In this document: positions 2,574 through 31,492 of the stretch, in pieces
Numbering within the stretch: the stretch's first letter is position 1
Layout: each line of letters starts with the position of its first letter
Source: an uncultured Gammaproteobacteria bacterium
GTDB taxonomy: Bacteria; Patescibacteriota; Microgenomatia; Daviesbacterales; UBA10151
Length of the DNA: 64,000 bases
Direction: 5' to 3'
Assembly (NCBI GenBank): GCA_964640215.1
Contig: CAZXEW010000030.1
Coordinates: forward strand, 17,920-81,919
Translations under genes and position numbers: made by a program
Notes under the pieces: model-generated
What the model was told of the DNA's origin: nothing
Seen by the model: only the letters and a program-made list of their open reading frames with translations
The model's database searches: none

Positions 2574-3461
2574 ATGTATCTGTCTGATGAAGAGATTGAG
2601 CAGTTGGAGTTGACGGCTAATACGATCCGCCAGAATATTATTAGGATGCTGGTGGAGGCGGGGTCGGGGCATTCGGCCGGGCCGCTGGGGATGGCTGATG
2701 TCTTTACGGCGATGTTTTTCCATGTTTTGAATATTGATCCATCGAGGGTGGATTGGGAGGAGCGGGATCGGTTTGTACTCTCTTGCGGGCATATTTGTCC
2801 GGTGATGTATGCGACGATGGCCCGTCGCGGTTTTTTCCCGGTTGAGGAGTTGAGAAGTTTGCGAAAATTAGGGACGCGGTTGCAGGGGCATCCACATCGG
2901 GAGTCGTTGCCGGGGCTTGAAACGACTTCGGGGCCGCTTGGCTCAGGGTTGTCACAGGCAAGTGGGATGGCCTTGGTGGCCAAGATGGATCAGCTGATGT
3001 GGCGAGTCTACGTGGTGATGTCGGATGGTGAGCACGATGAGGGTAATACCTGGGAGGCAGTGATGCTGGCGGCTAAGTATAAGTTGCATAATCTGACGGC
3101 GATTTTGGACCGGAATAACATCCAGATTGATGGTTTTACTGAAGATGTGATGCCGCTGGATTCGCTTAAGGCCAAATACGAGGCGTTTGGCTGGTCGGTG
3201 ATCGAGATTGACGGGCATAATATTCGCGAAATAATCGAGGCTTGTGAGAGGGCTAAAACGATTGTCGAGGGTCCGACCCTGATCTTGGCGCACACGATCC
3301 CCGGCAAGGGCGTTGATTTTATGGAAGGCGATTTTCACTGGCACGGCTCGCCGCCGGGGACTCAAGACGTGGCGGGCGATCCACCCAAAGCTGAACAGGC
3401 CCAAATTGCCTTGAAAGAGTTGAGAACGTTAAGGGGGAAGATTAGGAGTGAACATGAATAA
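2574..3461 (+). CDS. tkt: transketolase, N-terminal (TPP-binding) subunit of a split transketolase
   Basis: GSGHSAGPLG TPP-binding motif and a DGEHDEGNTWEA region. ~295 aa matches the split-Tkt N subunit. Confidence 0.85.
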   Translation: MYLSDEEIEQLELTANTIRQNIIRMLVEAGSGHSAGPLGMADVFTAMFFHVLNIDPSRVDWEERDRFVLSCGHICPVMYATMARRGFFPVEELRSLRKLGTRLQGHPHRESLPGLETTSGPLGSGLSQASGMALVAKMDQLMWRVYVVMSDGEHDEGNTWEAVMLAAKYKLHNLTAILDRNNIQIDGFTEDVMPLDSLKAKYEAFGWSVIEIDGHNIREIIEACERAKTIVEGPTLILAHTIPGKGVDFMEGDFHWHGSPPGTQDVAGDPPKAEQAQIALKELRTLRGKIRSEHE

Positions 3462-4805: not shown

Positions 4806-5828
4806 ATGATTAATGACAAAGCTAATTTGAATCCTAAGTTGTTTGAGGAGGGTGTGGAGATGAAGCCTTCGCGGGATGGGTTTGGGGAGGGGTTGGTGTT
4901 GGCGGGGGAAGAAGACAAAAATGTAGTGGCGCTATGTGCGGATTTGACGGAGTCGACGCGGATGGAGGCGTTTAAGCAGAAATTTCCGGAACGATTTATA
5001 GAAGTGGGGGTGGCTGAGCAGAATCTGGTGACAGTTGGATCTGGGATGGCGGCGGCTGGAAAGATACCGTTTGTTAGTTCGTACGCCACATTTTCGCCGG
5101 GGCGGAATTGGGAGCAGATTCGAACAACGATTTGTTACAACAACCAGCCGGTCAAGATTGTCGGTTCTCACGCCGGTATTTCAGTCGGGCCGGATGGGGC
5201 GACGCACCAAGCGTTGGAGGATATGGCCTTGATGCGGGCGTTGCCCAATATGGTGGTGATTTGTCCGGCCGATGCCATTGAGGCGCGTAAAGCCACCCAG
5301 GCGATTGCCCGGACAAAAAAACCGACCTATTTGCGTTTGTCGCGCGATAAAGTGCCGGTAATAACAACCGAACAAACTCCCTTTGAAATAGGTAGGGCGG
5401 AAGTACTCTTTTCATCACTATCGGATACAGGGTTGAACCCTAAAGCCGATAGTGTAGCCATTATTGCCTGTGGACAGATGGTGTACAGGGCGCTGCAAGC
5501 GGCGAAAGAGTTAGGGGAGCAAAAGATTGGGGTCAGGGTGATTAACTGTCATACCATCAAGCCGTTGGATAAAGAGACGATTTTAAAGGCCGCCCAGGAG
5601 TGTGGGGCGATCGTGACAGTTGAGGAGCATCAGGTGAACGGTGGACTCGGTGGAGCGGTGGCGGAATTGGTCTCTCAACATTGCCCGGTGCCGACTAAGA
5701 TTATAGGTATTGACGATCATTTTGGCGAATCAGGGAATCCTCAGGAATTGCTAAAAAAGTTCGGCTTAACCAAGGAGGCGATTGTTAAGGGCGTTTTGCA
5801 GGTCCTGAGGATGAAACCTAATAATTAA
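4806..5828 (+). CDS. tkt: transketolase, C-terminal (pyrimidine-binding plus C-terminal domain) subunit
   Basis: GFGEGLVLAGEEDKNVVALCADL, FIEVGVAEQNLV and GSHAGISVGPDGATHQALEDMALMRALPNM are typical of the Tkt C-terminal half. Confidence 0.85.
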   Translation: MINDKANLNPKLFEEGVEMKPSRDGFGEGLVLAGEEDKNVVALCADLTESTRMEAFKQKFPERFIEVGVAEQNLVTVGSGMAAAGKIPFVSSYATFSPGRNWEQIRTTICYNNQPVKIVGSHAGISVGPDGATHQALEDMALMRALPNMVVICPADAIEARKATQAIARTKKPTYLRLSRDKVPVITTEQTPFEIGRAEVLFSSLSDTGLNPKADSVAIIACGQMVYRALQAAKELGEQKIGVRVINCHTIKPLDKETILKAAQECGAIVTVEEHQVNGGLGGAVAELVSQHCPVPTKIIGIDDHFGESGNPQELLKKFGLTKEAIVKGVLQVLRMKPNN

Positions 5829-8764: not shown

Positions 8765-9457
8765 AATTAGGGTCCGTAGAATTAGGGTCCGACCCTTAGG
8801 TTTCAAGGGTCAATTCCCCTAAGGCTTCTTCAGTATTTTCTAGATAGTCTTCAACAAAATTTTCATACGAAAGGCAGTCTCTTAGATAGATATTGTGCGC
8901 AGTTTTGAAAAATGACAAAATAAAATCAGGTTTCACCCAATCAGCTTTAGCTAAAGATAGATAGTAACGATAGCTTGAAAAATCATATGTTTTAGGGTCG
9001 GACCCTGGATAAGGGTTAAGATGGATATAACGTGACAGGTGTAACAGGTAGATATCTTCCAGAATTATTGTTGCTTTATATTTTCCTTGAAATAACGTGC
9101 CTACCCGGTTGTATTTGAGATTGAAGAAAGTTGCATATTTAGTGCAGACGGCACGCATAAGCTTTGTTATCCCATCCTTAGTGATTTGATGTAGCATTAA
9201 ATGGAAATGATTTGGCATTAAGCAAAAGGCAAGTAAATTTACCTCTTGAGCTAGAGATTTAGGGTCCGACCCTAATGTTGGGTCAAGGTAATGTTTCAAA
9301 TAACTTAGGAAGATGGTGTAATCTTGCCTATCAAGAAAGATAATACGTTTTTCTACGCCTCGATTGTAAACATGGTAATAACTATTTTCGGAGAATTGTC
9401 TGATAGTGTTTTTTGCTGGCATTTGTTTTTTTGTTATCGGCTTTAGGGTCCGACCCC
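8765..9457. repeat. cluster of five copies of a 13-nt REP-like palindrome AGGGTC(C/G)GACCCT: 8765-8778 (imperfect), 8784-8796, 8994-9006, 9261-9273, 9445-9457
   Basis: Palindromes read directly. Two copies flank the RAYT gene on each side and two lie inside its CDS, each encoding G-S-D-P. Confidence 0.6.
8796..9422 (-). CDS. REP-associated tyrosine transposase (RAYT; IS200/IS605 TnpA-like HUH Y1 transposase)
   Basis: YHVYNRG N-terminal motif, HFHLML HUH motif, and a catalytic Tyr region QGKYKA. 208 aa. Flanked by REP palindromes. Confidence 0.75.
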   Translation of the reverse strand: MPAKNTIRQFSENSYYHVYNRGVEKRIIFLDRQDYTIFLSYLKHYLDPTLGSDPKSLAQEVNLLAFCLMPNHFHLMLHQITKDGITKLMRAVCTKYATFFNLKYNRVGTLFQGKYKATIILEDIYLLHLSRYIHLNPYPGSDPKTYDFSSYRYYLSLAKADWVKPDFILSFFKTAHNIYLRDCLSYENFVEDYLENTEEALGELTLET

Positions 9458-10389: not shown

Positions 10390-10523
10390 CTAAAGCTGAG
10401 GCAGGATTTCGGTGATAGCTTGGTCAATTGTTTTGACAGTAACTCCGCTTTGTTTGATCATCTCCAGCTCGGCTGGGAAAACCGTCTAAGCTATTTTGTT
10501 TGGTTTATCAGCTAAGAAGAAAC

Positions 10524-10541
10524 TCCGACGTACGTCGGAGA
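10524..10541 (-). terminator. perfect 18-nt hairpin CTCCGACGTACGTCGGAG between convergent genes, with a T-run on the minus strand
   Basis: The palindrome reads directly. The minus strand continues TTTCTTCTT after the stem, immediately downstream of the GT2 fusion gene end at 10561. Confidence 0.5.
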
Positions 10542-10560
10542 GCTTCATTGATGGGTAATA

Positions 10561-13479
10561 TTACTTGGTGCTTATTAAAGTAGATTTTGAGGAAACAGAA
10601 TAAAGATCTTGTCCATTTTCAGACAAATCGTTTTTACCAACATAATTTTTCGTGCCTTTAAAAGTCTTTGTATAAATACCAAAATCCCAGTTGTTCTTAA
10701 TTATATTATTTGCGACCTTATTACTTGAGGCATCATCAACAAAATAAACACCAACTTTGTTATTTGTAATATTGTTGTCATTGATCTGGTTCGAATCTGT
10801 TTTTACATAAACTGCAGTTTGGTTTTGGCTAAAAATATTATTTGAAACAGTATTGTTATCTGCTTGGCCGTAAAGATATACTCCATATTGCTTATTTTTA
10901 CTAAACTCATTGAGAGTAATTTGGTTTTTTTGGGATCTGGTGTTGGCTCTGAAGCCCCTCTGATTCCCGTATATTTTATTATTCTTAACTATATTATTGC
11001 TTGAGTCATAGAAGGCAATACCGTCTTTATTACCATAAACGGTATTATTTTCGACGATATTACTATTTGAATCCCGATCCAACATTATTCCGTGGAGTTT
11101 ATTGTTGTAAGAGAGGTTATTTCTAATAATATTATTAACACATCTTTTAGAGAAAATTATTCCGTGGTTGCCATTGTTGCGAGAAATATTATTCTCAACT
11201 AAAAATCCATTTGAATCATCGTGTGGATCCAGTCCATATTGGATGTTTTCATAAAACTCATTACCTGCCCAAACCATACCAACCGCACCGTATGTATATG
11301 CTCCGAAGTAATTATGGTGGAATTTTGAATTTTTAACCTCTCCTGTTACAAAATACTTACCGGCTGTTCCATCTGGTAATTTCCAGGAAACTCCATAAGA
11401 TGAACCATCCAAACTTGAATGAGGATCAAATCCTAAGTAACCCAAATCAGAATTTAGAATATCCATTCTTGAGCTATATTTGGCCATAATAAAACTTCTG
11501 CCATCTTTGTCATTCTTATCATAGTCATTTTTAGTCGTGTCCCAAGAAGATATTCTGACCCCATCAATGTGGACATTTCCGCCCCATGTTCGAATAGATA
11601 CAAAGTTCCCAGGCTCACTCTTAAGTTTTAACCATTCAACCTCATCCTTACTTAAGTATAAAGAGACTCCTTTTTCAATCTTAAGGTTGGCTTTGAGTAG
11701 CCACTCTTTAGGTTTGGTTTGTTCAATTTTGTCATTTCCTAATTTTGTCTGTAAATCGGCCAGTTTTATTGGGTTACCTCTGCCAAAAACATGAATTGTG
11801 TTATCTTCCTTATCATAGATAATCTCAAGCTTTGTGACTTTCTTAATTGTGTATGAGTTGGTATGAGGAGACTCTAAGCTAAATTGTTGATAAGGGATGC
11901 TGAGGATTGTTCCTGGCTCAATTCTGTTCCAATTAGGTAAGATATTTAAGTTTGCTTCAACTATATCTTGAACATCTGTATCAAAAGCAACCGCAATTCC
12001 AGATAGGATATCTCCCTGCTTAACAACATATTTTTTTATTAACAAACCATTATCATTAATATAAGTTTTAGAGTCTAAATCACTAACTTGCTCTAATTTA
12101 ATATTGCTGTCTAAAACTATATTCTCAGCCTGTATTTTAGTATCTACCAGATTTTGAGCAAGCTGTCTATTCGGTTCCGGAAAAGTGAGGCCCGTTTTCT
12201 GGGAATAAACAAGTCCAGTCAGAACAAAAAGCAGTATTGCAGACATAGCATATGCTGGAACATAACTTAAAAATTTAAATTGAGGTAACCTGCTTTTATC
12301 CCATCGGGTAATCCAACTTTGAGTATTTAAAGTAAACAGAGCATATATTTTCAAAATTGCTGAAACAAATGTATACAATACATAAAAAGGTAAAATAGTT
12401 ACATGAGCGGGTCTTCTTTGTAAATGAGGGTAAATTTTAATAGCTCTTGAAATAAACCACCAAATGAAAATTAAACCTGCTCCTAAATATAGACTTAAGT
12501 AAAGAGATATTAAAAAGTAGATCGGGCTTAAAATCATGGCAAAGGCTTGAACAACTTTGTCAATTTGGTAAAACGCTAGAGCTGGATGTCTAAATGGCCA
12601 GCCTTGAAAAATTGCTCTTAAGTCTGCCCTTAAACTATTTCTAGTCCATCTGAGCCTTTGTTTCAAGTAGGATTTCAAATCAGTCATTCCCGGGGTATAT
12701 ACTCTGGCATTCTTTTGATAGGCAACCTTCCAACCACTAGCTAAAACTAAATAGGTTAATCTCTTGTCGTCTCCCGCGATAACTGGCTTACCCATAAAAG
12801 TCTCATTCACCAGCTCATCACACATTGGTAAAACAACACTTCTTCGATAAAATGCTGTTCTTCCAGATAAACAAACTAGAGCATCTCCAGCTGCAGCTAA
12901 AAAAGTAAATTCCTCGCAGTATCTTAAATCCAATTGAATATCAAACAATTTTTGAGCTAAGGTATGGGTTTGTAGCACGTTCTGTCTAGTTGTGACTCCG
13001 GCAACTTTAGGGTCAATAAACGGAGGTAGTGAGTTTTTCAGAACTGTTTCTGCCCAGAGAGTGTCTGAATCAACTAAAGCCACCAGCTCTCCCTTAGCAA
13101 TTTTAATTCCGTCAGCCAAAGCTGCTCTTTTACCAGGTTTTTTAGTAATAATTAGTTGTGTGTGAGAATAAGTTCTAGAAAATTTTCTAAAGATCTCTAT
13201 CGATTGTTTATCAGTGTAGTCAATTACAGCAATAATCTCAAAAGGAGCATTTTCTGCCCAAGAAAAAAGAGCTGCTTTAAATATACTTGGGTCTTCGTTA
13301 TAAACTGGCGTAATAATAGAAACAGACGCTTTGAAGTTATTCTTTTTAACTTTGTAAAATGATCCAATAACTTTTTTAACAACCCAAGTAAGCCAACGCC
13401 AAACTCCAATAATTCCGATTGGTAAATAAAATAGTATTATGGATAAGTAATGTTGGATGTAGGACAGTGTATTTTCCAT
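10561..13479 (-). CDS. membrane GT2 processive synthase of the HAS/NodC/chitin-synthase type, fused to a LysM domain and a C-terminal right-handed parallel beta-helix (PbH1) domain
   Basis: N-terminal TM helix. GT-A motifs: VDSDTLW (DxD), AGDDKRLT (GDDRxLT of HAS/NodC/CHS), QRLRWTRNS (QxxRW). Multiple TM helices follow the GT domain. A LysM domain (YVVKQGDILSGIAVAFDTDVQDIVEANL) is followed by ~12 NNxIxxN/GIxx beta-helix repeats. Confidence 0.8.
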   Translation of the reverse strand: MENTLSYIQHYLSIILFYLPIGIIGVWRWLTWVVKKVIGSFYKVKKNNFKASVSIITPVYNEDPSIFKAALFSWAENAPFEIIAVIDYTDKQSIEIFRKFSRTYSHTQLIITKKPGKRAALADGIKIAKGELVALVDSDTLWAETVLKNSLPPFIDPKVAGVTTRQNVLQTHTLAQKLFDIQLDLRYCEEFTFLAAAGDALVCLSGRTAFYRRSVVLPMCDELVNETFMGKPVIAGDDKRLTYLVLASGWKVAYQKNARVYTPGMTDLKSYLKQRLRWTRNSLRADLRAIFQGWPFRHPALAFYQIDKVVQAFAMILSPIYFLISLYLSLYLGAGLIFIWWFISRAIKIYPHLQRRPAHVTILPFYVLYTFVSAILKIYALFTLNTQSWITRWDKSRLPQFKFLSYVPAYAMSAILLFVLTGLVYSQKTGLTFPEPNRQLAQNLVDTKIQAENIVLDSNIKLEQVSDLDSKTYINDNGLLIKKYVVKQGDILSGIAVAFDTDVQDIVEANLNILPNWNRIEPGTILSIPYQQFSLESPHTNSYTIKKVTKLEIIYDKEDNTIHVFGRGNPIKLADLQTKLGNDKIEQTKPKEWLLKANLKIEKGVSLYLSKDEVEWLKLKSEPGNFVSIRTWGGNVHIDGVRISSWDTTKNDYDKNDKDGRSFIMAKYSSRMDILNSDLGYLGFDPHSSLDGSSYGVSWKLPDGTAGKYFVTGEVKNSKFHHNYFGAYTYGAVGMVWAGNEFYENIQYGLDPHDDSNGFLVENNISRNNGNHGIIFSKRCVNNIIRNNLSYNNKLHGIMLDRDSNSNIVENNTVYGNKDGIAFYDSSNNIVKNNKIYGNQRGFRANTRSQKNQITLNEFSKNKQYGVYLYGQADNNTVSNNIFSQNQTAVYVKTDSNQINDNNITNNKVGVYFVDDASSNKVANNIIKNNWDFGIYTKTFKGTKNYVGKNDLSENGQDLYSVSSKSTLISTK

Positions 13480-13496
13480 AAGCGTAAAAACTTAAA

Positions 13497-14414
13497 TTAA
13501 AGAGGTAAACCTGTTGTGAAAGATGAGTGAATTTTTCTAGAAGGAGTTTTGGTGTTTTTAAAGGTATTATTTACTTCTATTGTTGTCTCAAGTAGATTTG
13601 CTTCTAAACCTTTCTTTTGCGCCCAGGCTAAGAATGCCTGAGTGTCTTTTGGTAAACAAGCACCAGAGAAAGGACCAAAATCTCGGGTACCATATTTAGG
13701 GTTCCAAATACCCTCGCAGCTTTTAGTTGTAAGCTCAAACATATGGTCTGAATCAACCTTTATAGCTTTAGCAATTGTTCTCATTTCGTTAAAGAAGGTA
13801 ATCTTGAAGGCGTTAAAAAGATTATGAACGTATTTTTGCATCTCAGCTTCTATTAGGGGAACCCTGTAAATTGGACAGTTGAATTTCTGATACACTTTTT
13901 CAAGTAAGTCGCCAGATCTTTTATCAAATTCTCCAATAACAACTACCCAAGGATTTGCAAAATCTTCGACTGAGGATACTTCTCTTAAGTATTCTGGATT
14001 CATACAAACTCCAAAATCTATACCTACTTTTTTACCGGAGTATTTTTCAAGGATTTTAACAATGCTTTCGGTTGTTCCTGGAGGTACAGTACTTCTAACC
14101 ACAGCTAAGTGGTATTTTGGCATTTTTACAAGTCTTTTGCCCAAGTCTTTAGCAGCAAGTTTTATATAATCTAACTGGATTTCACCGTTAAGAGTAGGGG
14201 TTGGAACAGTAAATATAGATATATCGGTATTATTTGGTATATCAGAATCACTTGCCAGGTTGGCTATAAAACCCTGATCTTTAAGTTTCTCAATAATGTT
14301 TTGATTTACATCAATAAAGTTTATATCAAAACCCTTGGAGATAAATCCTTTTCCTGTAGCCTGGCCAACTACACCGGAACCAATGATTGATAATTTAAGT
14401 TTCTTATTTCTCAT
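13497..14414 (-). CDS. UDP-glucose/GDP-mannose 6-dehydrogenase family protein, lacking the C-terminal UDP-binding domain
   Basis: IGSGVVGQATG Rossmann motif and the catalytic-Cys motif GACLPKD (GGxCxxKD). Only 305 aa, and the stop lies 18 nt upstream of the GT2 gene. Confidence 0.7.
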   Translation of the reverse strand: MRNKKLKLSIIGSGVVGQATGKGFISKGFDINFIDVNQNIIEKLKDQGFIANLASDSDIPNNTDISIFTVPTPTLNGEIQLDYIKLAAKDLGKRLVKMPKYHLAVVRSTVPPGTTESIVKILEKYSGKKVGIDFGVCMNPEYLREVSSVEDFANPWVVVIGEFDKRSGDLLEKVYQKFNCPIYRVPLIEAEMQKYVHNLFNAFKITFFNEMRTIAKAIKVDSDHMFELTTKSCEGIWNPKYGTRDFGPFSGACLPKDTQAFLAWAQKKGLEANLLETTIEVNNTFKNTKTPSRKIHSSFTTGLPL

Positions 14415-14558
14415 TTTATTTTCTAATTTTCTATGAGCTAACTAATACAGACATATATTAAAGATTTGAGCCTAAAATATATCCAGTAGTAATTATTACA
14501 AGCTATTCTACTATAACACCAATAGTTTGTCAAGGATTAATTATAGGATACTCTTTGA

Positions 14559-15842
14559 TTAGAGTATGATCTTGCTGAGGTAGATTGGGAAGTTTAGTTC
14601 TTTAGTGGAAAAAAGAATTAAGCTGTTTTGGGTTTTAGATTGAGATAAAATATTGGGAAAAAAGGAGTCCTTCGCAATTTGAAGTTTTTCTGAGAAGGAC
14701 GCTTCAGCTTCTTTTTTAACGACTAAGTAGGATGTGCCTTCATGTGGATTATCCTCAGGAAATTCAGATTCTTTATCTGTCTCAAGCCAGGTAATAAATA
14801 AACTATTATCTATACTTACCCCTATCTGAGGAAAGAATTGAAAAGTTGCGGATTCTGACACAATTTCTGATTTTGACCAATCTTTGCCATCAAATTTTGC
14901 GTACCTAACTTGTGTTTTTCTATTACTTAGGCTAAATTCTCTCCAAGTAAGGTGTAGCCTATTTTTTGAGTCTAGTGTGACAGATAAGTGTCTGTTGTCT
15001 TGGGAGGAATTAGAAATATTTTTCCACTCAGACCAGCTGCCCCCTTCGTTTAAAGATATTGAATACCAAATTTGAGAATTATTGAGATTTTGTTTGGAGT
15101 ACATAAAAACATAAAGCAGTCCATTTTTATCCTGAATAATTGTTGGCCTGGATTGAGATCCTGATGATAAATTTATATCTTTCCAACCGGACCAATCTTT
15201 CCCATCCTTTGATTTGGAAAACTTTATCAGCTGATTATTGCTATCTTTATCTTTTCCCTCCCAGACTACAAATAAGTTATCATCCCCACCTACCAAAATA
15301 TTAGGGTGTTCCTGCCAGAGAGTTTGGTTTTTGTACCCTTCTACATAGGAAATATTAACGGCTTTCGACCAAGTTTCCCCCCCATCCTGAGAGCCAGAAT
15401 ATTTGATCTGTCGATCCCCGTCCGGGTTATTTGAATCTGCACCATACCAAATGAGATGTAGGTTATCCCTGGAATCTATAGCAATAGAGGGTACTCTTTG
15501 GCTAGCTTTATTATCAACAATGGAGACATTCTTTATAAAATCTACTTTATAGGACACGTCCCCATCTTTTTTTAATTTGGCGACAAAAATTTCATAATAA
15601 TTATTTGCTTTTTTTCTGTAAGCTACAAAAATATTCCCTTTAGAGTCAGAAACCAGTTTTTTTTGCCCACTAAAACCTAGTGCTTTATAGTCTTCTGAGA
15701 CATCGACTAAGATATTATTTATCATAAAATCTTTAGTTTCTTTCATACTTACATCCGTAGATACTTGTTTTTGAGCTGTTTTAAAAGATATCAATATAGC
15801 AGTCAGAACAACAATAATTAGTATTGGGATAATTTTTAGCAT
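14559..15842 (-). CDS. BNR/Asp-box repeat (sialidase-like beta-propeller) protein, N-terminally membrane-anchored
   Basis: Asp-box repeats SQDGGETWS, SKDGKDWS, NEGGSWSEW, DGKDWSKS. N-terminal TM helix. Confidence 0.6.
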   Translation of the reverse strand: MLKIIPILIIVVLTAILISFKTAQKQVSTDVSMKETKDFMINNILVDVSEDYKALGFSGQKKLVSDSKGNIFVAYRKKANNYYEIFVAKLKKDGDVSYKVDFIKNVSIVDNKASQRVPSIAIDSRDNLHLIWYGADSNNPDGDRQIKYSGSQDGGETWSKAVNISYVEGYKNQTLWQEHPNILVGGDDNLFVVWEGKDKDSNNQLIKFSKSKDGKDWSGWKDINLSSGSQSRPTIIQDKNGLLYVFMYSKQNLNNSQIWYSISLNEGGSWSEWKNISNSSQDNRHLSVTLDSKNRLHLTWREFSLSNRKTQVRYAKFDGKDWSKSEIVSESATFQFFPQIGVSIDNSLFITWLETDKESEFPEDNPHEGTSYLVVKKEAEASFSEKLQIAKDSFFPNILSQSKTQNSLILFSTKELNFPIYLSKIIL

Positions 15843-15956
15843 GTCGTGATTAGTGTAATAGTATCACCAAAATACCTGTTGAGATACGATCAAAGATAAA
15901 GTGGGGTATTTAGTGTTTGGCTGAATTGGTCGGATTGTTTTAGAGGAAAGTTAAAT

Positions 15957-17618
15957 TTACGATCCATGTTTGACGTCGGGGTGGGGCTTGGCGAGATGTT
16001 GGTAGGAGTAATCGAGGGTGGCGTCGACCTTTTTGTGAGGATTGAAGATGTCGTTTGGGTCGAAGATGTGTTTGACTCTTTTAAATAGTTGATAAACTTT
16101 TTGGCCGTACATTTGTTCTAAATAAGCGCCCCGGACCAAGCCGTCGTTGTGTTCGCCGGACATCGAGCCGTGATATTCAAAGACTAGACTATAAACTTTT
16201 TGGGCAATTTCCGGTAAGATTTGGCGGATTTTCGGATTGGCAAAATCGATTAGCGGAATAATGTGGAAATTGCCGTTACCGGCGTGGCCGGCGATAGTAT
16301 AGATCATCATTTTCTGATACTGGCTGAGGATTTTTTTGAGCTTGGGTAGAAAAGCTGGCAGGTCTTGGTGGCGGACGACGAGGTCGTCAATGAACGGGGC
16401 TGTTCGTTTGTGGGTGGCGTGGTGGCGAAGCAGATTAAAACTTTCCCGGCGGATGGTCCAGTATTTTTTGGACTCTGCTTCGCTTTGGGTGATGTGGGTT
16501 TTGAGATGGAACGGTTTAAGATCTGACTGAGCTTCCAGTAGTTTTTGGTTGACCTCCTCCATCGAATCGCCGGTAAATTCGGCCAGCAAAATTAGTTTCG
16601 GCAGGCCGCCGGTCAGAGACATCCACATCTCGGGAATAAATTGCCAAGCGAGTTTAAGCATACTAGTAGGGTTGATGACTTTGAAAATATCACCGATGAA
16701 GCGGGTGGCAACTTTGAGTGTCTGATCGTCGAAGGATTCCAGGCTTTCGGGCTGATGAGTCAGAAGCTGATTGATGATTTCGGCTAAATTGTTGAGATCT
16801 TTAAGGAAAATAACCAACAAGTTGGAATAGGGTTTGGGTTTGACCAGAGCAAACTCTATTTCCGTGACGATACCCAGAGTGCCTTGTGAGCCAACAATCA
16901 GTTTGTTTAAATCGAAAGTTTGGCCGTCCCAGACGTTCCAAAGCGAGTAGCCGGTTGAATTTTTAGTGACGTTCGGTTTGGCGGATTTTATCAGGTCGTA
17001 GTTGGTAGTGATTAGGTCGTAGAGCTGTTTGTAAAGCCGGCCTTCGAAATCTGGCTGAGAGAGCTTAGAGCTTAGAGCTTGAGAGGTTAGTGGTGTAATA
17101 GTGTATTCGTGGCCATCGGACAAAACAACTTTGAGGCGTTTGACGTAACGCTGCGTTTGGCCGTAGGAGAGGGTTTTTTCACCGGCCGAGTTGTTGCCGA
17201 CCATCCCGCCGACCGTGTTTATTTCGCGCGAGGCGGTATAACAGGGTAGAAGCAGTCCTTTTTTGAGGGTTTGTTTCTCAAAGTCGCGATAATAAACACC
17301 GGGTTGGGTGACGACACTATCAACTTTGACCTCCCCCATTTGGTTGAAGTGTTTGGTCATATCGAGAATAATCGAGTCGTTGATGGCGCCGCCGGACATG
17401 CAGGTACCGCCGCTGCGGGCGGTTAGAGAGAGGTTTTGATCCGGATGCTCGTTGACGAATTTGACCAGAGACTGGATATCTTTGGTGTTGGCCGGATAAA
17501 CGACGGCTTGGGGTTTAATTTCGAAAATTGAGGCATCCTGGCTGTAGGCAGTTAAGGTTTCATCGTCGGTTTTGACCTCGCCTTTGATCGCTTTTTTGAT
17601 ATCTGAAATTGTATCCAT
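15957..17618 (-). CDS. FAD-linked oxidase (GlcD/D-lactate dehydrogenase-like, PCMH-type FAD-binding)
   Basis: RSGGTCMSGG (RGGGTxxxGG motif) in an N-terminal FAD-binding domain. 553 aa with a C-terminal oxidase domain. Confidence 0.75.
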   Translation of the reverse strand: MDTISDIKKAIKGEVKTDDETLTAYSQDASIFEIKPQAVVYPANTKDIQSLVKFVNEHPDQNLSLTARSGGTCMSGGAINDSIILDMTKHFNQMGEVKVDSVVTQPGVYYRDFEKQTLKKGLLLPCYTASREINTVGGMVGNNSAGEKTLSYGQTQRYVKRLKVVLSDGHEYTITPLTSQALSSKLSQPDFEGRLYKQLYDLITTNYDLIKSAKPNVTKNSTGYSLWNVWDGQTFDLNKLIVGSQGTLGIVTEIEFALVKPKPYSNLLVIFLKDLNNLAEIINQLLTHQPESLESFDDQTLKVATRFIGDIFKVINPTSMLKLAWQFIPEMWMSLTGGLPKLILLAEFTGDSMEEVNQKLLEAQSDLKPFHLKTHITQSEAESKKYWTIRRESFNLLRHHATHKRTAPFIDDLVVRHQDLPAFLPKLKKILSQYQKMMIYTIAGHAGNGNFHIIPLIDFANPKIRQILPEIAQKVYSLVFEYHGSMSGEHNDGLVRGAYLEQMYGQKVYQLFKRVKHIFDPNDIFNPHKKVDATLDYSYQHLAKPHPDVKHGS

Positions 17619-25774: not shown

Positions 25775-26449
25775 TTATATTTCTAAATATAACCGATCAA
25801 GTAATGATTGAATGGCAGCTTCACAGTAACCTACGTCTTGGAGTGACAAGGGGGGTTTAGTATATTTGATTGATGACTCAGGTAATCTGAAATATGGCCC
25901 TAATGCATCAAAATTAGCAGGTAATGGGTAGGCTTTAATGCAGTTTCCGCGAGAGTCAAAAAAGTAGTGGGTATAAAAATCATTTCTTCTTTCAGGATAT
26001 GCAGCGATAAGTTGTCTGGCAGCATCTAGATACTGTGGATCACCCAGAACTCCCAAGTGTAAAGAATTAACCGAGTTGAAATGGAGTGCATGAGCCCAAA
26101 GAGACTCCCGAGGATCTTCATGGACAAAAGTGACTGATCCTCCGCCGATTTCAGTTGGTATCTGTGCGTCTCGGATGCTGGCCACTAAGCGGGTACCCTG
26201 TCTATCGATCGTTGCGTTGGTAAATAACGGGATAGAATCCCGGCCATTATGGTTATTCAATCTCAGCTGATAGGAAATCTCATTGATAATTAGTGGGAAT
26301 TTACGTGAGATTGATAGAGTTCGACGACTGAATTCATTCGCTTCTAATAACCTCTGTGGCTTTGGGGTATCTGGTAATCCGAGTATTCTTAATACTTCAT
26401 TGATAGCATCTTCGGAATTGAAAGGTTCCTGCTCGGGTGATGTAGGCAT
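25775..26449 (-). CDS. hypothetical cytoplasmic protein, paralogue B1
   Basis: ~30% identical to 26514..27176. Shared blocks: PEQ..NSE.AI, IGxGS..F..ED.R, PER..F..YFD..GNC.KA..LPA.F. No known family recognised. Confidence 0.5.
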   Translation of the reverse strand: MPTSPEQEPFNSEDAINEVLRILGLPDTPKPQRLLEANEFSRRTLSISRKFPLIINEISYQLRLNNHNGRDSIPLFTNATIDRQGTRLVASIRDAQIPTEIGGGSVTFVHEDPRESLWAHALHFNSVNSLHLGVLGDPQYLDAARQLIAAYPERRNDFYTHYFFDSRGNCIKAYPLPANFDALGPYFRLPESSIKYTKPPLSLQDVGYCEAAIQSLLDRLYLEI

Positions 26450-26513
26450 AGAGAATATATTATATGGTTTTGGATTTTAGAGTCAAGATTAAATAGCTTC
26501 TGGAGATGTTTTA

Positions 26514-27176
26514 TTAATATAGGTGTTCAAATAATATGCGAGTGGCGGCTACACAAGTGTGCATGTCTTGGTTTGTCATTGCTGATCTGACCCATTTGAC
26601 TGCCATGTCAGGTATGATTAGAGAAGGCCGAGAGTCTTTGAATTCAGCAGGCAAGGAGAGGGCTTTGGCACAATTGCCGTCGTTATCAAAATAATAATAG
26701 CTGAAAAACTCATAATTTCTTTCAGGATCGTCATGAATATAGTTTAGGGCGTCGACTAGTGAATTTGGATCGTCTTGGATCCCCAGGCGCAACAAATGAT
26801 CTGATTTAATACCGAGAAATTGAGCCATATCAGATCGTCGATGGTCTTCATACATAAAGAGAATTGATCCTTCGCCAATCTGGGTAGGTAATCTAGTGTC
26901 AAGAATTGTTGCTTTTAGATGCCCTATTGTTTGATTGATGCGTAATCCTGGCAACAATGTCTCCTGCAGCTGAGGAGTATAATGCAGCCTTCCTATTTTT
27001 TTAAGAATTGAGTTGACTAGGTGATCATGAGAAGATGCAATCGCTCGAGCCGAACCTCTGGCTGCAGCCTGTAATCGTAACTCTTCTGATCGGGCGTCAT
27101 CTGATAAACTAAACCATCTTTCGGCTTCTGCGATTGCAGCCTCGGAATTTAGGGGTTGTTCAGGAACGAGAGACAT
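26514..27176 (-). CDS. hypothetical cytoplasmic protein, paralogue B2
   Basis: See B1. Divergent from A2 across a 66-bp shared promoter region. Confidence 0.5.
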   Translation of the reverse strand: MSLVPEQPLNSEAAIAEAERWFSLSDDARSEELRLQAAARGSARAIASSHDHLVNSILKKIGRLHYTPQLQETLLPGLRINQTIGHLKATILDTRLPTQIGEGSILFMYEDHRRSDMAQFLGIKSDHLLRLGIQDDPNSLVDALNYIHDDPERNYEFFSYYYFDNDGNCAKALSLPAEFKDSRPSLIIPDMAVKWVRSAMTNQDMHTCVAATRILFEHLY

Positions 27177-27242
27177 ACCGGATATATTATAGTATTTTGA
27201 TTTTTTTCGTCAAGGTTTTTAGATGGGTGATATACTATAGAC

Positions 27243-27509
27243 ATGTTGGGATTCACAAAATGGAGGTTTTTGGCGACGTTGGGGTTGAGTGTGGTGGTTT
27301 ATTTCCTCAGTGTACTAATTCAATTTTTAACTGGTTTTAATGTTAGTTACAGTTTTTTATCTGATACTGGGTGTCAACTTACGGGATACCCTATTGCGAA
27401 ATGTATATATAATAAATCGTTTTTATTTGTAGATTTGGTGAATATTGTAATTTGGTTTTGGGTGATTCATTTGGTGTGGGGTTTTGTGAGTCCGCGAAAG
27501 GTAAAGTGA
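27243..27509 (+). CDS. small 2-TM membrane protein, paralogue A2
   Basis: See A1. The 3' end overlaps the 3' end of the convergent lipase gene. Confidence 0.5.
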
Positions 27510-30487: not shown

Positions 30488-30543
30488 TTTTTAGGCAGTG
30501 GCTTACGTAACTGTTAAGTTGGGCGAATTATGGGCTCTTTTTA

Positions 30544-31137
30544 TCAAAAAAGCAATGGTGAGTCTGAGATTGGTGGGTTGACTGGTTTGGGGGTAAGACC
30601 GAGGGGTGGCAGCCAGGGTTTATATTGGCAATTTGATCGTGGGGTGCACAGAGGTAGGGTACAAACCCAGATTGGATCATTGGAGGTGAGGTGAAGGATT
30701 GGTGGGTGTTCGGACGAAATTTCGAGACGGCGACCGCCGCCTCGACTTCTAACAGCTTGGATCTGCGGGGCGATGAATATAGGGTTAAGTGAGTCGGCTC
30801 CGGCAATATTAATGCTTGCGAGCATTTGGAAGCGTTGCTCCGGGTTACTGGGATGAAAACTGGCTGATAATAAGCGATATGCACCGGGTTGTGCCAGATA
30901 AGCATTTTCCAATTGAATTTTTAGGCTAAGGATTAGTTCGAGCGTCATCTGTCGTTGTGTCATTTCCGTGCGAGGGTAGCCGATCCGGCGGGACTGTGCA
31001 ATGTGGCGAAAGGGTTGAGGCATGCGATCTATTTTTGCTGACCAGCCTCGGAGTATAGCCAAGTCAGACTCAGCTAATGCAGACAAAACTTGGTACTGTG
31101 TTGTTAGATCTGGAATATCGATGTGTTCAACGCTCAC
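30544..31137 (-). CDS. hypothetical protein
   Basis: 197-aa ORF whose start overlaps the S51 fragment ORF. No motifs recognised; possibly spurious. Confidence 0.3.
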   Translation of the reverse strand: MSVEHIDIPDLTTQYQVLSALAESDLAILRGWSAKIDRMPQPFRHIAQSRRIGYPRTEMTQRQMTLELILSLKIQLENAYLAQPGAYRLLSASFHPSNPEQRFQMLASINIAGADSLNPIFIAPQIQAVRSRGGGRRLEISSEHPPILHLTSNDPIWVCTLPLCTPRSNCQYKPWLPPLGLTPKPVNPPISDSPLLF

Positions 31138-31492
31138 TGGTATATTTTAACAACTTCCCCATAAAAATGGGGAGTTTGGTTAAAGAAAATGCCGCTTTGG
31201 TCATTGCAAGTGTAGATTGTGTGGGTGGTTTGGGCGGCGTAGGTGCGTATTGCGGGAGATCCGCAGGGGTGAAGTGAGGTGAAAATTCAAAGTTGACAAA
31301 GTTGAGGGCGGTTAGGTCTTTGAGACCGATATCGTTGGGATCGGCGAAGGGTAGGGTAGCGACGGCGATGTTGGGAGTAAAAACGATCGTACCGGCGCTG
31401 ACGCCGATGATCAGGCCGCCGTGATCGAGATGGGTTTTGAGGATTCGGCCAAATCGGCGATGGTTAATGTAGTTGAGAAACTCATTGGTCAA
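31127..31492 (-). pseudogene. peptidase S51 (PepE/cyanophycinase-like) fragment lacking the N-terminal ~90 aa
   Basis: HLDHGGLIIGVSAGTIVF (GxSAG nucleophile) and FSPHF (His region). There is no room for the N-terminal half before the divergent ppi gene at 31668. Confidence 0.35.

What the first reader, a model, noticed from the sequence alone, without database searches (positions are those of the whole stretch)
10561..14414. HAS/NodC/chitin-synthase-type GT2 fused to LysM and a parallel beta-helix, preceded by a C-terminally truncated UDP-glucose dehydrogenase homologue
The 972-aa protein combines three parts. The first is a membrane-embedded processive GT2 with the diagnostic GDDKRLT and QRLRW motifs of hyaluronan, Nod-factor and chitin synthases. 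The second is a LysM domain. The third is ~12 PbH1 beta-helix repeats, a fold typical of polysaccharide lyases, hydrolases and C5-epimerases. Immediately upstream, and co-transcribed from the layout, is a UDP-glucose/GDP-mannose dehydrogenase homologue with the catalytic GACLPKD. It stops at 305 aa, so the canonical UDP-binding C-terminal domain is missing. The synthase-plus-UGDH pairing resembles the hasA-hasB logic (a glucuronate-containing polymer). A synthase covalently fused to a potential polymer-modifying or polymer-cleaving beta-helix is unusual. Nearby BNR-repeat, FAD-oxidase, DoxX and GT-C genes suggest an envelope-glycan locus.
Basis: partly seen in the sequence, partly recalled or inferred. 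Interest (0 to 1): 0.65.

Follow-up and report, generated by a model that had tools for sequence, protein, structure and literature searches.

The report
Alginate-type synthase–epimerase gene cassette
This candidate-phyla bacterium carries a horizontally acquired three-gene cassette that most likely makes an alginate-like acidic sugar polymer, and its parts (a short sugar dehydrogenase of the kind brown seaweeds use, and a membrane synthase fused to an alginate-type epimerase) form a widespread, apparently undescribed second version of alginate biosynthesis.

Summary
In detail: both ORFs, all quoted motifs and the three domains of the 972-aa protein are at the stated coordinates.

The interpretation needs sharpening.
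- **β-helix.** It is a close relative of the alginate C5-epimerase AlgG. The DPHD catalytic motif is invariant.
- **"Truncated UGDH".** It is not broken. It belongs to a large, conserved family of ~300-aa dehydrogenases under strong purifying selection, with all catalytic residues kept. AlgD (GDP-mannose dehydrogenase) is its best sequence match among solved structures. It has the same short layout as the biochemically active GDP-mannose dehydrogenases of brown algae.
- **Linkage.** Short dehydrogenase, HAS/NodC-like GT2(-LysM) and AlgG-like β-helix are linked in every related locus examined (Microgenomates, Saccharibacteria-like, Actinomycetota-like and Chloroflexota contigs). Synthase and epimerase are fused in some and split in others. 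PL7 alginate lyases usually sit alongside.
- **This window.** A BNR propeller replaces the lyase. The 5.5-kb cassette is a low-GC, skew-free island in a high-skew genome.

Best reading: a synthase-dependent, alginate-like polyuronate system for single-membrane cells. It resembles the brown-algal pathway more than the Pseudomonas one. No experiment exists and the polymer identity is inferred. I found no description in the searchable literature.

The parts
10400..15900 (.). Compositional island holding the three-gene cassette. GC is ~0.35 and GC skew ~0. The rest of the window has GC ~0.46 and + strand GC skew of +0.2 to +0.4.
   Evidence: By blastn, only window 10587-15698 matches the Daviesbacteria locus L001 (74-81% nt identity), with no homology outside it. 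That genome has cassette-like composition throughout.
14559..15842 (-). BNR / sialidase-like β-propeller protein of 427 aa with an N-terminal membrane anchor. It occupies the position that PL7 or Pel9A-like lyases hold in other lineages, so it is a putative polymer-trimming enzyme.
   Evidence: Pfam gives BNR_4 at 1.4e-8 and BNR_2 at 4.9e-7. There is no significant PDB sequence match. Its orthologue in L001/L002 is 67% identical and dN/dS is 0.147. The function is inferred from position only.
14505..14533 (-). Promoter-like site TTGACA-17-TAGAAT (11 of 12 matches) in the 144-nt gap upstream of the dehydrogenase gene.
   Evidence: This is a consensus match only.
13497..14414 (-). Short nucleotide-sugar 6-dehydrogenase of 305 aa, with the NAD-binding and central domains only. 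It is a putative GDP-mannose 6-dehydrogenase of the short, brown-alga type.
   Evidence: Domains are from Pfam. AlgD 1mfz is the best PDB sequence match at E 2.5e-46. All catalytic residues are invariant in the family: T109, E141, K194, N198, C253, K256, D257, with E145 nearly so. The short form is conserved in all 120 best homologues and in 117 of 150 50%-identity cluster representatives. dN/dS is 0.082. The AlphaFold model has pLDDT 86 and TM 0.82 to the N-terminal and central domains of a UGDH.
12100..13479 (-). Synthase part of the 972-aa fusion (aa 1-460): an N-terminal TM helix, a cytosolic GT-A domain, interface helices and channel TM helices. It is a processive GT2 of the HAS/NodC type.
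   Evidence: Pfam gives Glyco_tranf_2_3. NCBIfam NodC scores 124 bits, below its cut-off. The family profile matches CvHAS at E 6.7e-23 and XlHAS1 at 3.8e-21. Foldseek TM on the target is 0.62-0.64. Invariant residues are D137/D139, G236/D238/K239, Q274/R277/W278 and W389/T391/R392/W393.
11890..12036 (-). LysM domain (aa ~482-530), predicted to lie outside the membrane.
   Evidence: Pfam LysM scores 4e-10. The domain folds in the AlphaFold model.
10588..11847 (-). AlgG-like right-handed β-helix (aa ~545-964), a putative extracytoplasmic polyuronate C5-epimerase.
   Evidence: PDB AlgG 4ozy matches at E 8.6e-32 and the family profile at 7.7e-46. NCBIfam AlgG scores 130 bits, below its cut-off. 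Foldseek to 4nk6 gives E 8e-19 with TM 0.69 on the target. Y748, G749, H753, D754, D755, K778, R779, N788 and N793 are invariant.
10523..10540 (-). Terminator-like hairpin followed by a T-run, 20 nt downstream of the fusion gene's stop.
   Evidence: This is a consensus match only.

Best explanation
The cassette is a compact, synthase-dependent system for an alginate-like polyuronate in a cell with a single membrane.

**Proposed mechanism**
1. The 305-aa cytosolic enzyme is a short-form nucleotide-sugar 6-dehydrogenase. It most likely converts GDP-mannose to GDP-mannuronate. Its catalytic residues are shown; its substrate is inferred.
2. The N-terminal part of the 972-aa protein is a HAS/NodC-type processive GT2. 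It would polymerise the uronate on the cytosolic face and thread the chain through its own transmembrane channel. The fold and motifs are shown; the donor and product are inferred.
3. The last TM helix places the LysM domain and the AlgG-like β-helix outside the cell. There LysM would hold the enzyme at the peptidoglycan or on the glycan. The β-helix would abstract the C5 proton of uronate residues in the emerging chain, converting mannuronate to guluronate. The catalytic motifs are shown; the activity and the epimerase-versus-lyase outcome are inferred.
4. A membrane-anchored depolymerase would trim or release the polymer. In most lineages this is a PL7 alginate lyase, in some a Pel9A-like β-helix, and here a BNR β-propeller.

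**Origin.** The cassette was acquired horizontally from a low-GC Daviesbacteria-like donor.

**Relation to known systems.** In content it is closer to the brown-algal alginate pathway (short GMD, non-Alg8 GT2, ManC5-E) than to the Pseudomonas/Azotobacter alg operon.
For: **β-helix is AlgG-like.**
- Sequence E 8.6e-32, profile E 7.7e-46, structure E 8e-19.
- The family keeps YG-L-DPHD invariant. H753 aligns with the AlgG catalytic base.
- K778/R779 align at the position of the AlgG arginine that neutralises the carboxylate.
- This chemistry requires a uronic acid.

**Dehydrogenase.**
- AlgD is the best PDB sequence hit.
- The nearest full-length relatives (P0424, P0438) are 47-50% identical to AlgD and 38-40% identical to an archaeal UGDH.
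- The catalytic set T/E/E/K/N/C/K/D is conserved and dN/dS is 0.082.
- The short architecture, the GxGVVG motif and the Pro five residues before the catalytic Cys match what is reported for the active 315-320-aa brown-algal GMDs (PMC4782291).
- The best bacterial BLAST hit of brown-algal GMD is a Woesebacteria (Microgenomates) protein (PMC11468063).

**Linkage.**
- Short DH, GT2 and AlgG-like β-helix are adjacent in all 11 related loci that are long enough to judge. They are fused in Microgenomates and Chloroflexota, and split in Saccharibacteria-like and Actinomycetota-like contigs.
- More than 20 further DH/fusion pairs share the same contig (matching contig lengths).
- PL7 genes in six of these loci carry the alginate-lyase motifs RSELR, QIH and YFK(A/T)G.Y.Q, plus membrane anchors.

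**Topology.** The lysine/arginine distribution and the HAS-like order of helices put the C-terminal modules outside.

**Horizontal transfer.**
Against: - No member of this family has been studied experimentally.
- The GT2 is not Alg8-like. Its nearest characterised relatives (HAS, NodC) use UDP-GlcNAc or UDP-GlcA.
- LysM is a GlcNAc-glycan binder, which would suit a GlcNAc-containing polymer.
- The dehydrogenase is only marginally closer to AlgD than to a Pyrobaculum UGDH (39% vs 37% identity). Foldseek ranks the UGDH first.
- No GDP-mannose pathway gene lies in the cassette or anywhere in the 64-kb window.
- This window has no PL7, and the BNR protein's role is guessed from its position.
- AlgG-type active sites can also act as lyases.
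- Similarity to brown-algal GMD could not be computed here, because no algal sequence was reachable. That link rests on published statements.
Confidence: 0.6

Rival explanations
1. This is a glucuronate-based polymer system in the hasA/hasB or type-3-capsule style. The short dehydrogenase would make UDP-glucuronate, or UDP-GlcNAcA / UDP-ManNAcA. The HAS-like GT2 would make a hyaluronan-, glucuronan- or chitouronic-type chain. The β-helix would epimerise GlcA to IdoA at polymer level.
For: - The GT2 is closest to hyaluronan synthases and NodC, all UDP-sugar enzymes.
- LysM binds GlcNAc-containing glycans.
- The dehydrogenase is nearly as similar to an archaeal UGDH as to AlgD.
- From my own knowledge, unchecked: PL7 is reported to include some glucuronan lyases.
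Against: - The β-helix carries the full mannuronan-epimerase signature.
- The cassette PL7s have the canonical alginate-lyase motifs.
- The nearest full-length relatives of the dehydrogenase are AlgD-like.
- The only characterised short-form enzymes are described in the literature as GDP-mannose dehydrogenases (PMC4782291; strict substrate specificity recalled from Tenhaken 2011, paper not held).
- No β-helix GlcA C5-epimerase is known.
Confidence: 0.2
2. It is a polyuronate synthase as above, but the fused β-helix works mainly as a lyase or chain-length-setting enzyme rather than as an epimerase.
For: From established knowledge of the families: AlgG-type epimerases and lyases share the first chemical step, and bifunctional AlgE7-type enzymes exist. 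The window lacks a PL7, so a trimming activity has to come from somewhere.
Against: Most lineages carry separate PL7 or Pel9A-like lyases next to the same β-helix, which argues for a different, non-redundant role. The best matches are epimerases, not lyases.
Confidence: 0.1
3. It is a chitin or chito-oligosaccharide synthase (NodC-like) with a LysM chitin-binding module. The β-helix and the dehydrogenase would have unrelated functions.
For: NodC is the best NCBIfam match for the GT2, over its full length. LysM is present.
Against: The NodC score of 124 bits is far below the 550-bit cut-off. There is strict linkage, and even fusion, with a uronate-specific epimerase fold, a 6-dehydrogenase and alginate lyases across phyla. 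There is no Pfam Chitin_synth_2 hit.
Confidence: 0.05
4. The 305-aa gene is a decayed remnant of a UDP-glucose dehydrogenase (truncation, frameshift or pseudogene), and the pairing with the synthase is incidental.
For: It lacks the canonical C-terminal nucleotide-sugar-binding domain.
Against: - All 120 closest homologues and most 50%-identity cluster representatives end at the same point.
- dN/dS is 0.082.
- The catalytic residues are invariant.
- The 17-nt gap leaves no room for another ORF.
- The short form persists across four phylum-level groups, always next to the synthase.
Confidence: 0.01

Closest known systems
Pseudomonas/Azotobacter alginate system (AlgD, Alg8-Alg44, AlgG, AlgL, AlgK/E/X/I/J/F)
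   Same: The logic matches: a nucleotide-sugar 6-dehydrogenase of the GMD branch, a processive membrane GT2, a polymer-level β-helix C5-epimerase homologous to AlgG with its DPHD motif, and an associated lyase.
   Different: - The polymerase is HAS/NodC-like, not Alg8.
- There is no Alg44/PilZ c-di-GMP receptor, no outer-membrane export or acetylation proteins, and no algA.
- The dehydrogenase lacks the C-terminal domain.
- The epimerase is fused to the synthase (or is the next gene) and carries LysM.
- The lyase is PL7, Pel9A-like or a BNR propeller instead of PL5 AlgL.
- The hosts are single-membrane lineages.
Brown-algal alginate pathway (short GMD, unidentified GT2 mannuronan synthase, ManC5-E)
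   Same: The GMD is short, ~305-320 aa, with no C-terminal domain, GxGVVG, and Pro at -5 from the catalytic Cys (PMC4782291). The ManC5-E has DPHD. The synthase is expected to be a GT2 unrelated to Alg8 (PMC11468063). The published best bacterial hit of algal GMD is a Microgenomates protein (PMC11468063).
   Different: The host is bacterial and the genes are clustered or fused. Direct similarity to algal sequences was not computed here. Whether brown algae possess a homologue of this GT2 is unknown.
Class I hyaluronan synthases with hasB (UGDH), and NodC
   Same: The GT2 fold, the DxD / GDD(K/R)xLT / QxxRW / WxTR motifs and an integrated channel are shared. So is the pairing with a sugar 6-dehydrogenase gene.
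   Different: - There is one N-terminal TM helix and the last TM helix is missing, so the C-terminus faces outward.
- Identity to CvHAS is only ~19% in the structural alignment.
- The partner dehydrogenase is the short GMD-like type.
- HAS and NodC have no fused extracellular modules.
Azotobacter AlgE1-7 secreted modular mannuronan C5-epimerases
   Same: They share the β-helix A-module fold and the YG(F/I/L)DPH(D/E) motif (PDB 2pyg matches at profile E 8e-11).
   Different: The window domain is much closer to AlgG than to AlgE. It has no R-modules or Ca-binding repeats, and it is membrane-tethered rather than secreted.

Membership tests
Processive membrane GT2 of the HAS / NodC / chitin-synthase type | GT-A domain with the DxD, G(D/E)D(R/K)xLT and Q(R/Q)xRW motifs | tested here: met
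   D137-S-D139, G236-D-D-K-R-L-T242 and Q274-R-L-R-W278 are present. D137, D139, G236, D238, K239, Q274, R277 and W278 are invariant in 34 family members.
Processive membrane GT2 of the HAS / NodC / chitin-synthase type | Gating-loop W-G-T-R motif and a transmembrane channel formed by the enzyme itself | tested here: met
   W389-I-T391-R392-W393 is invariant. The AlphaFold model matches CvHAS and XlHAS1 across the TM region (TM 0.62-0.64 on the target, E 1e-16 to 1e-17). BcsA and Chs1 score more weakly.
Processive membrane GT2 of the HAS / NodC / chitin-synthase type | Orthology to a characterised member (NodC or PgaC equivalog score) | tested here: not met
   NodC scores 124 bits against a 550-bit cut-off. 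PgaC/IcaA scores 54 bits against 422. There is no Pfam Chitin_synth_2 hit.
Processive membrane GT2 of the HAS / NodC / chitin-synthase type | Product is hyaluronan, chitin or a chito-oligosaccharide | not testable with these tools
   This needs biochemistry.
Mannuronan C5-epimerase (AlgG / ManC5-E) | Right-handed parallel β-helix (CASH) homologous to AlgG | tested here: met
   phmmer gives 4ozy at E 8.6e-32 over aa 571-870. The profile gives E 7.7e-46. Foldseek to 4nk6 gives E 8.4e-19 with TM 0.69 on the target.
Mannuronan C5-epimerase (AlgG / ManC5-E) | DPHD catalytic motif, with the catalytic His and a basic residue at the carboxylate-neutralising position | tested here: met
   D751-P-H753-D754 is present, with H753 and D754 invariant. 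K778/R779 are invariant and align with the AlgG arginine in the 'IIISR' stretch. Assigning these roles to the AlgG residues rests on my knowledge of the AlgG literature.
Mannuronan C5-epimerase (AlgG / ManC5-E) | Second conserved motif, NNRSYEN in P. aeruginosa AlgG | tested here: met
   N787-N-L-S-Y-N-N793 is present. N788 and N793 are invariant and S790 is nearly so. The motif definition is recalled from memory, not checked against a paper.
Mannuronan C5-epimerase (AlgG / ManC5-E) | AlgG equivalog score | tested here: not met
   NF038177 scores 130 bits against a 700-bit cut-off. It is a homologue, not an orthologue.
Mannuronan C5-epimerase (AlgG / ManC5-E) | Converts β-D-mannuronate to α-L-guluronate in the polymer | not testable with these tools
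   This needs an NMR assay on polymannuronate.
Short-form GDP-mannose 6-dehydrogenase (brown-alga type) | About 305-320 aa with only the NAD-binding and central domains, and no C-terminal nucleotide-sugar domain | tested here: met
   The protein is 305 aa with PF03721 and PF00984 only. The same holds for all 120 best homologues. SjGMD1 and SjGMD2 are 320 and 315 aa (PMC4782291).
Short-form GDP-mannose 6-dehydrogenase (brown-alga type) | GxGxVG with Val in place of the bacterial Tyr, the GGxCLPKDV catalytic motif, and Pro five residues before the Cys | tested here: met
   G12-S-G-V-V-G17, S-G-A-C253-L-P-K-D-T and P248 (nearly invariant) are present. The comparison is with residues listed in PMC4782291. 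The last motif position is T rather than V.
Short-form GDP-mannose 6-dehydrogenase (brown-alga type) | Catalytic residues of the UGDH/GMD superfamily | tested here: met
   T109, E141, E145, K194, N198, C253, K256 and D257 align with AlgD T124, E157, E161, K210, N214, C268, K271 and D272.
Short-form GDP-mannose 6-dehydrogenase (brown-alga type) | Closer in sequence to brown-algal GMD than to other clades | not tested
   No algal sequence was reachable. afdb50 was unavailable, Tenhaken 2011 is not held, and the supplements contain no sequences. Indirect support: algal GMD's best bacterial hit is a Woesebacteria protein (PMC11468063).
Short-form GDP-mannose 6-dehydrogenase (brown-alga type) | Specific for GDP-mannose | not testable with these tools
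   AlgD is only slightly better than an archaeal UGDH as a match (39% vs 37% identity).
Pseudomonas-type alg operon | Alg8 polymerase with the Alg44 PilZ co-polymerase | tested here: not met
   The GT2 groups with HAS and NodC. No Alg8 or PilZ family appears among the Pfam or NCBIfam hits for the cassette or the window. This negative evidence is weak, because I did not verify that an Alg8 model is in the libraries.
Pseudomonas-type alg operon | Outer-membrane export and modification proteins (AlgK, AlgE, AlgX, AlgI/J/F) and AlgA | tested here: not met
   None appear in any of the cassettes examined or in the window.
   The synthase is HAS-like. The partner is a short enzyme of the GMD branch, and the fused and linked modules are alginate-type.

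The most novel reading that the evidence does not exclude
This cassette is the bacterial prototype of the non-Alg8 (brown-alga-type) alginate pathway. On this reading, Patescibacteria (Microgenomates, Saccharibacteria), some Actinomycetota and some Chloroflexota make genuine alginate with it. Its HAS/NodC-like GT2 would be the long-sought kind of mannuronan synthase, whose homologue, transferred together with the short GMD and ManC5-E, would be the unidentified brown-algal enzyme.
Probability: 0.3. Interest if true: 0.88.

Novelty: new variant of a known kind. Interest (0 to 1): 0.7.

Why it matters
- **Range of alginate producers.** In the literature I could read, bacterial alginate synthesis is described only for Pseudomonas and Azotobacter, and Actinomycetota are said not to be known to have a pathway (PMC11468063). 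A second, minimal, outer-membrane-free alginate-type machine would widen that range. It is found in hundreds of candidate-phyla genomes and in Actinomycetota-like and Chloroflexota contigs. It could bear on how episymbiotic ultra-small bacteria build a matrix or attach to hosts. It could also bear on the unexplained 'alginate-like exopolymers' of sludge and soils (that link is my own knowledge).
- **A synthase-epimerase fusion.** The fusion of synthase and epimerase is a natural experiment in coupling polymerisation to polymer-level modification.
- **How the short dehydrogenase works.** It shows that the nucleotide-binding C-terminal domain is dispensable in a very large enzyme clade. How these enzymes bind their substrate is unknown.
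- **The brown-algal synthase.** The mannuronan synthase of brown algae is still unidentified (PMC11468063). The GT2 that always travels with a brown-alga-type GMD and a ManC5-E is a concrete, testable candidate family.

Tried and rejected
1. **Frameshift or separate ORF for the dehydrogenase C-terminal domain.** Rejected. The gap is 17 nt, the short form is conserved, and no UDPG_MGDP_dh_C hit appears among 50 window ORFs scanned.
2. **PL7 or fn3 cassette partners elsewhere in the window.** tblastn found none.
3. **Flanking direct or inverted repeats, or a shared transposase marking the island ends.** Nothing convincing was found. The nearby Y1 transposases of the window and L001 are only 33% identical.
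4. **Genome-contig scan with the family alignment.** Only about 6 of 80 loci were true relatives. Those few were still informative.
5. **Direct comparison with brown-algal GMD.** Not possible. afdb50 was unavailable, Tenhaken 2011 is not held, and the supplements of two papers hold no sequences. A cluster look-up of ten short representatives returned no algal names.
7. **Literature searches for a description of the cassette or fusion** (candidate phyla radiation / Patescibacteria / Saccharibacteria / Actinobacteria, combined with alginate, epimerase, mannuronan or hyaluronan synthase). No paper describes it.
8. **The idea that FAD-oxidase, DoxX, DUF1361 and GT-C form one glycan locus with the cassette.** Rejected on composition and synteny. 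One observation remains open: the FAD-oxidase orthologue also follows the cassette in L088.

Full report
**1. Observation**

- The quoted motifs can be read in the translations. GDDKRLT is at aa 236-242 and QRLRW at 274-278. GACLPKD is at 251-257 of the smaller protein.
- For the 972-aa protein, Pfam gives Glyco_tranf_2_3 (aa 53-281, E 4e-31), LysM (aa 484-529, E 4e-10) and Beta_helix/NosD (E 9e-35 / 8e-27).
- For the 305-aa protein, Pfam gives the NAD-binding and central domains of the UDPG/GDP-mannose dehydrogenase family and nothing else.
- The genes are 17 nt apart.
- The strongest promoter-like site of the region lies upstream of the dehydrogenase gene, and a terminator-like hairpin follows the synthase gene.

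**2. The β-helix**

The C-terminal module is not a generic parallel β-helix.
- Its best solved relative by sequence is the periplasmic alginate C5-epimerase AlgG (4ozy, E 8.6e-32 over aa 571-870).
- A profile of 34 family members raises this to E 7.7e-46.
- NCBIfam's AlgG model is the top hit, at 130 bits. That is far below the orthologue cut-off, so it is a homologue and not an orthologue.
- An AlphaFold model (mean pLDDT 86.3) finds AlgG first in the PDB (E 8.4e-19, TM 0.69 on the target).
- In the family alignment A1, Y748, G749, H753, D754 and D755 of 'YGLDPHDD' are invariant. So are K778/R779, which align with the AlgG arginine in 'IIISR', and N788 and N793 in 'NNLSYNN'.
- From my knowledge of the AlgG literature, these correspond to the DPHD motif with its catalytic histidine, the carboxylate-neutralising arginine, and the NNRSYEN motif.

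This chemistry starts with abstraction of the C5 proton next to a carboxylate, so the substrate should be a polyuronate.

**3. The synthase**

- The N-terminal 460 residues carry invariant DxD, GDDK, QxxRW and W-x-T-R motifs.
- The family profile matches class I hyaluronan synthases over GT domain and membrane part together (CvHAS E 6.7e-23, XlHAS1 E 3.8e-21). Cellulose synthase scores about E 8e-4 and no chitin synthase is listed.
- Foldseek gives the same order: HAS, then BcsA, then Chs1.
- NodC is the best NCBIfam hit over its full length, but at 124 bits against a 550-bit cut-off.
- The lysine/arginine distribution and the order of helices give this topology: N-terminus outside, one TM helix, cytosolic GT domain, a TM hairpin (about 306-347), an interface helix (358-385), the cytosolic W-x-T-R loop, and a last TM helix (409-430).
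- After that come an acidic linker, LysM and the β-helix, all outside.
- Compared with CvHAS, the first and last TM helices are missing. That is what turns the C-terminus outward.

**4. The 'truncated' dehydrogenase**

- All 120 best homologues are 260-349 aa with the same two domains.
- In an exhaustive search of 50%-identity cluster representatives, 416 proteins score better than E 1e-30. Of the best 150, 117 are 350 aa or shorter, with identities down to about 34%.
- The family ends 10-60 variable residues after a conserved 'VN'.
- The catalytic set is invariant or nearly so: T109, E141, E145, K194, N198, C253, K256, D257. These equal AlgD T124, E157, E161, K210, N214, C268, K271, D272.
- Against the 83%-identical Daviesbacteria orthologue, dN/dS is 0.082. 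The fusion gives 0.069 and the BNR gene 0.147.
- The AlphaFold model (pLDDT 86.2) superposes on the N-terminal and central domains of UGDH/GMD structures with TM up to 0.82.

So this is a functional, ancient short form and not a decayed gene.

Which sugar does it act on?
- AlgD is the best PDB hit (E 2.5e-46).
- The nearest full-length relatives in the representative search are clearly AlgD-like (47-50% identity to AlgD, 38-40% to a Pyrobaculum UGDH).
- The window protein itself is only marginally closer to AlgD (39% vs 37%).

The literature supplies the missing piece.
- The GDP-mannose dehydrogenases of the brown alga Saccharina are 320 and 315 aa. They have GxGxVG near residue 14 and GGxCLPKDV near residue 260. 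They carry Val instead of the bacterial residue in the glycine motif and a Pro five residues before the cysteine. They have measured Km values for GDP-mannose (PMC4782291).
- The window protein and its family share the length, GSGVVG at 12-17, P248 and C253.
- From memory, the Ectocarpus enzyme (Tenhaken et al. 2011, JBC 286:16707) was described as lacking the C-terminal ~120 residues while remaining specific for GDP-mannose. The paper is not held, so I could not check this.
- A 2024 survey reports that the best bacterial BLAST hit of brown-algal GMD (40% identity) is a protein of Candidatus Woesebacteria, a Microgenomates lineage like the present one (PMC11468063).

**5. Context and distribution**

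- The 972-aa protein has more than 120 full-length homologues (48-87% identity) with the same architecture. They come from Daviesbacteria, Amesbacteria, Levybacteria, Roizmanbacteria and unnamed metagenome bins.

| Locus | Source | Gene order |
|---|---|---|
| window | this genome | BNR - short DH - fusion |
| L001/L002 | Daviesbacteria | BNR - short DH - fusion |
| L003/L004 | Amesbacteria | fn3 - fusion - short DH - PL7 |
| L006 | Levybacteria | fusion - short DH - PL7 |
| L005 | unnamed metagenome contig (574 kb) | fn3 - fusion - small ORF - short DH - second fusion - PL7 |
| L007 | Chloroflexota bin | short DH - fusion |
| L008 | Chloroflexota bin | unfused GT2, two ~1300-aa proteins with 2-3 AlgG-like modules each, and a short DH |
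| L009 | bin labelled Aeromicrobium | short DH - GT2-LysM - separate β-helix - PL7 x2 |
| L086 | 2-Mb contig with actinobacterial-looking neighbours | short DH - GT2-LysM - separate β-helix - PL7 x3 |
| L087 | 557-kb contig | Pel9A-like β-helix - short DH - GT2-LysM - β-helix |
| L088 | 1.35-Mb contig | Pel9A-like β-helix - short DH - GT2-LysM - β-helix |

- The split form, a GT2-LysM of ~534 aa, is itself a large family whose named members are mostly Saccharibacteria.
One pair has adjacent locus tags (A2866_05850 and A2866_05855).
- The fused and split forms are a Rosetta-stone argument that synthase and epimerase work together.
- All eight cassette PL7 proteins examined carry RSELR, QIH and YFK(A/T)G.Y.Q. 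Most have an N-terminal membrane anchor.
- These are the signature motifs of PL7 alginate lyases. That statement, and the association of QIH with G- or MG-active enzymes, come from my own knowledge.

**6. This window's version**

- There is no PL7 in the window.
- A membrane-anchored BNR / sialidase-like propeller (Pfam BNR_4 at 1.4e-8) sits where the lyase usually is. Its role is a guess.
- The three genes form a compositional island (10400-15900; GC ~0.35, skew ~0). The surrounding genome has GC ~0.46 and a + strand GC skew of +0.2 to +0.4 regardless of gene orientation.
- Only these three genes match the Daviesbacteria locus at the DNA level (74-81% identity). The flanks differ, and that genome has the cassette's composition throughout.
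- In the Amesbacteria locus the cassette is also lower in GC than its flanks.
- The cassette therefore moves horizontally. I found no bounding repeats.
- The FAD oxidase, DoxX, DUF1361 and GT-C genes have host composition and are not part of the unit.

**7. Mechanism proposed**

1. In the cytosol, the short dehydrogenase oxidises a nucleotide-hexose, most likely GDP-mannose, to the uronate.
2. The GT2 polymerises it and translocates the chain.
3. Outside, the tethered AlgG-like domain epimerises some residues as the chain emerges, while LysM fixes the enzyme to the wall or the glycan.
4. A membrane-anchored depolymerase trims the polymer.

What is shown: the domain identities, the conserved catalytic residues, the topology logic, the gene linkage, the purifying selection and the horizontal transfer. 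What is inferred: the substrate, the product, the epimerase-versus-lyase outcome, and the roles of BNR and LysM.

**8. Comparison with known systems**

- It works like the alginate systems but is not a member of the Pseudomonas-type operon. It has no Alg8, Alg44 or outer-membrane parts, and its lyase family differs.
- It resembles the brown-algal pathway in its short GMD, its ManC5-E and a non-Alg8 GT2 whose identity in algae is still open (PMC11468063, PMC8307928).
- The hasA-hasB analogy holds only at the level of 'synthase plus 6-dehydrogenase'.

**9. Caveats**

- There are no experimental data for any member.
- The GT2's nearest characterised relatives use UDP-sugars, and LysM suggests GlcNAc recognition.
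- The preference for AlgD over UGDH is small.
- No GDP-mannose pathway genes are nearby.
- The algal link was not computed here.
- Bin labels such as 'Aeromicrobium' and 'Nevskiaceae' may be unreliable.

I give 0.6 to the alginate-like reading, 0.2 to a glucuronate-based variant, and the rest to minor rivals. The pseudogene reading is excluded.

**10. Novelty**

Nine literature searches found no description of the cassette or the fusion. Public annotations read 'right-handed parallel beta-helix repeat-containing protein', 'glycosyltransferase' or 'hyaluronan synthase'. I rate it a new variant of a known kind, with interest 0.7.

Noticed in passing
window 1-64000 except 10400-15900: The + strand GC skew is extremely strong and uniform (+0.2 to +0.4) regardless of gene orientation. 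For example, the minus-strand genes at 25775-31492 still show +0.22 to +0.35. This is far above what is usual for bacteria, and the cassette island alone lacks it.
   Followed up: partly
window 15957-17618 (-) and L088 13271-14920: The FAD-linked oxidase next to the cassette has host-like composition. It is 53% identical to the FAD oxidase that directly follows the split cassette in an unrelated 1.35-Mb contig. This may be chance adjacency or an accessory gene.
   Followed up: partly
L008 12593-16489 and 16744-20685 (-): A Chloroflexota bin carries an unfused copy of the GT2 next to two ~1300-aa proteins. Each has 2-3 AlgG-like β-helix modules, reminiscent of the modular secreted AlgE epimerases of Azotobacter.
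   Followed up: partly
L087 7790-8884 and L088 7789-8922: In two split-cassette loci, a Pel9A-like (pectate-lyase-type) β-helix protein precedes the short dehydrogenase, in place of PL7. The depolymerase partner of the cassette therefore varies: PL7, Pel9A-like or BNR.
   Followed up: no
L003 7192-8007 and L005 7213-8004: A ~265-aa fn3-domain protein immediately precedes the fusion gene and overlaps its start. L003 also has a second fn3 protein and a sortase downstream. These may be wall-anchored accessory proteins of the cassette.
   Followed up: no
window 32948-36568 (+): The ribonucleotide reductase large subunit (1206 aa) is interrupted by an intein with a LAGLIDADG homing endonuclease, at about aa 385-718.
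   Followed up: no
window 2574-3461 and 4806-5828 (+): Transketolase is split into N-terminal and pyrimidine-binding/C-terminal genes. A signal peptidase S26 gene and a 143-aa ORF lie between them.
   Followed up: no
window 8778-9422: A RayT/IS200-like Y1 transposase gene (8796-9422, -) has low GC (0.36) and overlaps the longest ORF call of the aldolase gene. A 25-nt sequence containing the palindrome GGGTCCGACCC occurs twice (8778-8802 and 9255-9279).
   Followed up: partly
window 27467-30487 (-): A 1006-aa protein combines a 3-keto-disaccharide-hydrolase-like domain with an LCAT/PGAP1-like lipase domain.
   Followed up: no
L005 8001-10922 and 12491-15427: Some genomes carry two paralogous synthase-epimerase fusions in one cassette, one with a recognisable LysM and one without. 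They share a single short dehydrogenase and one PL7.
   Followed up: no
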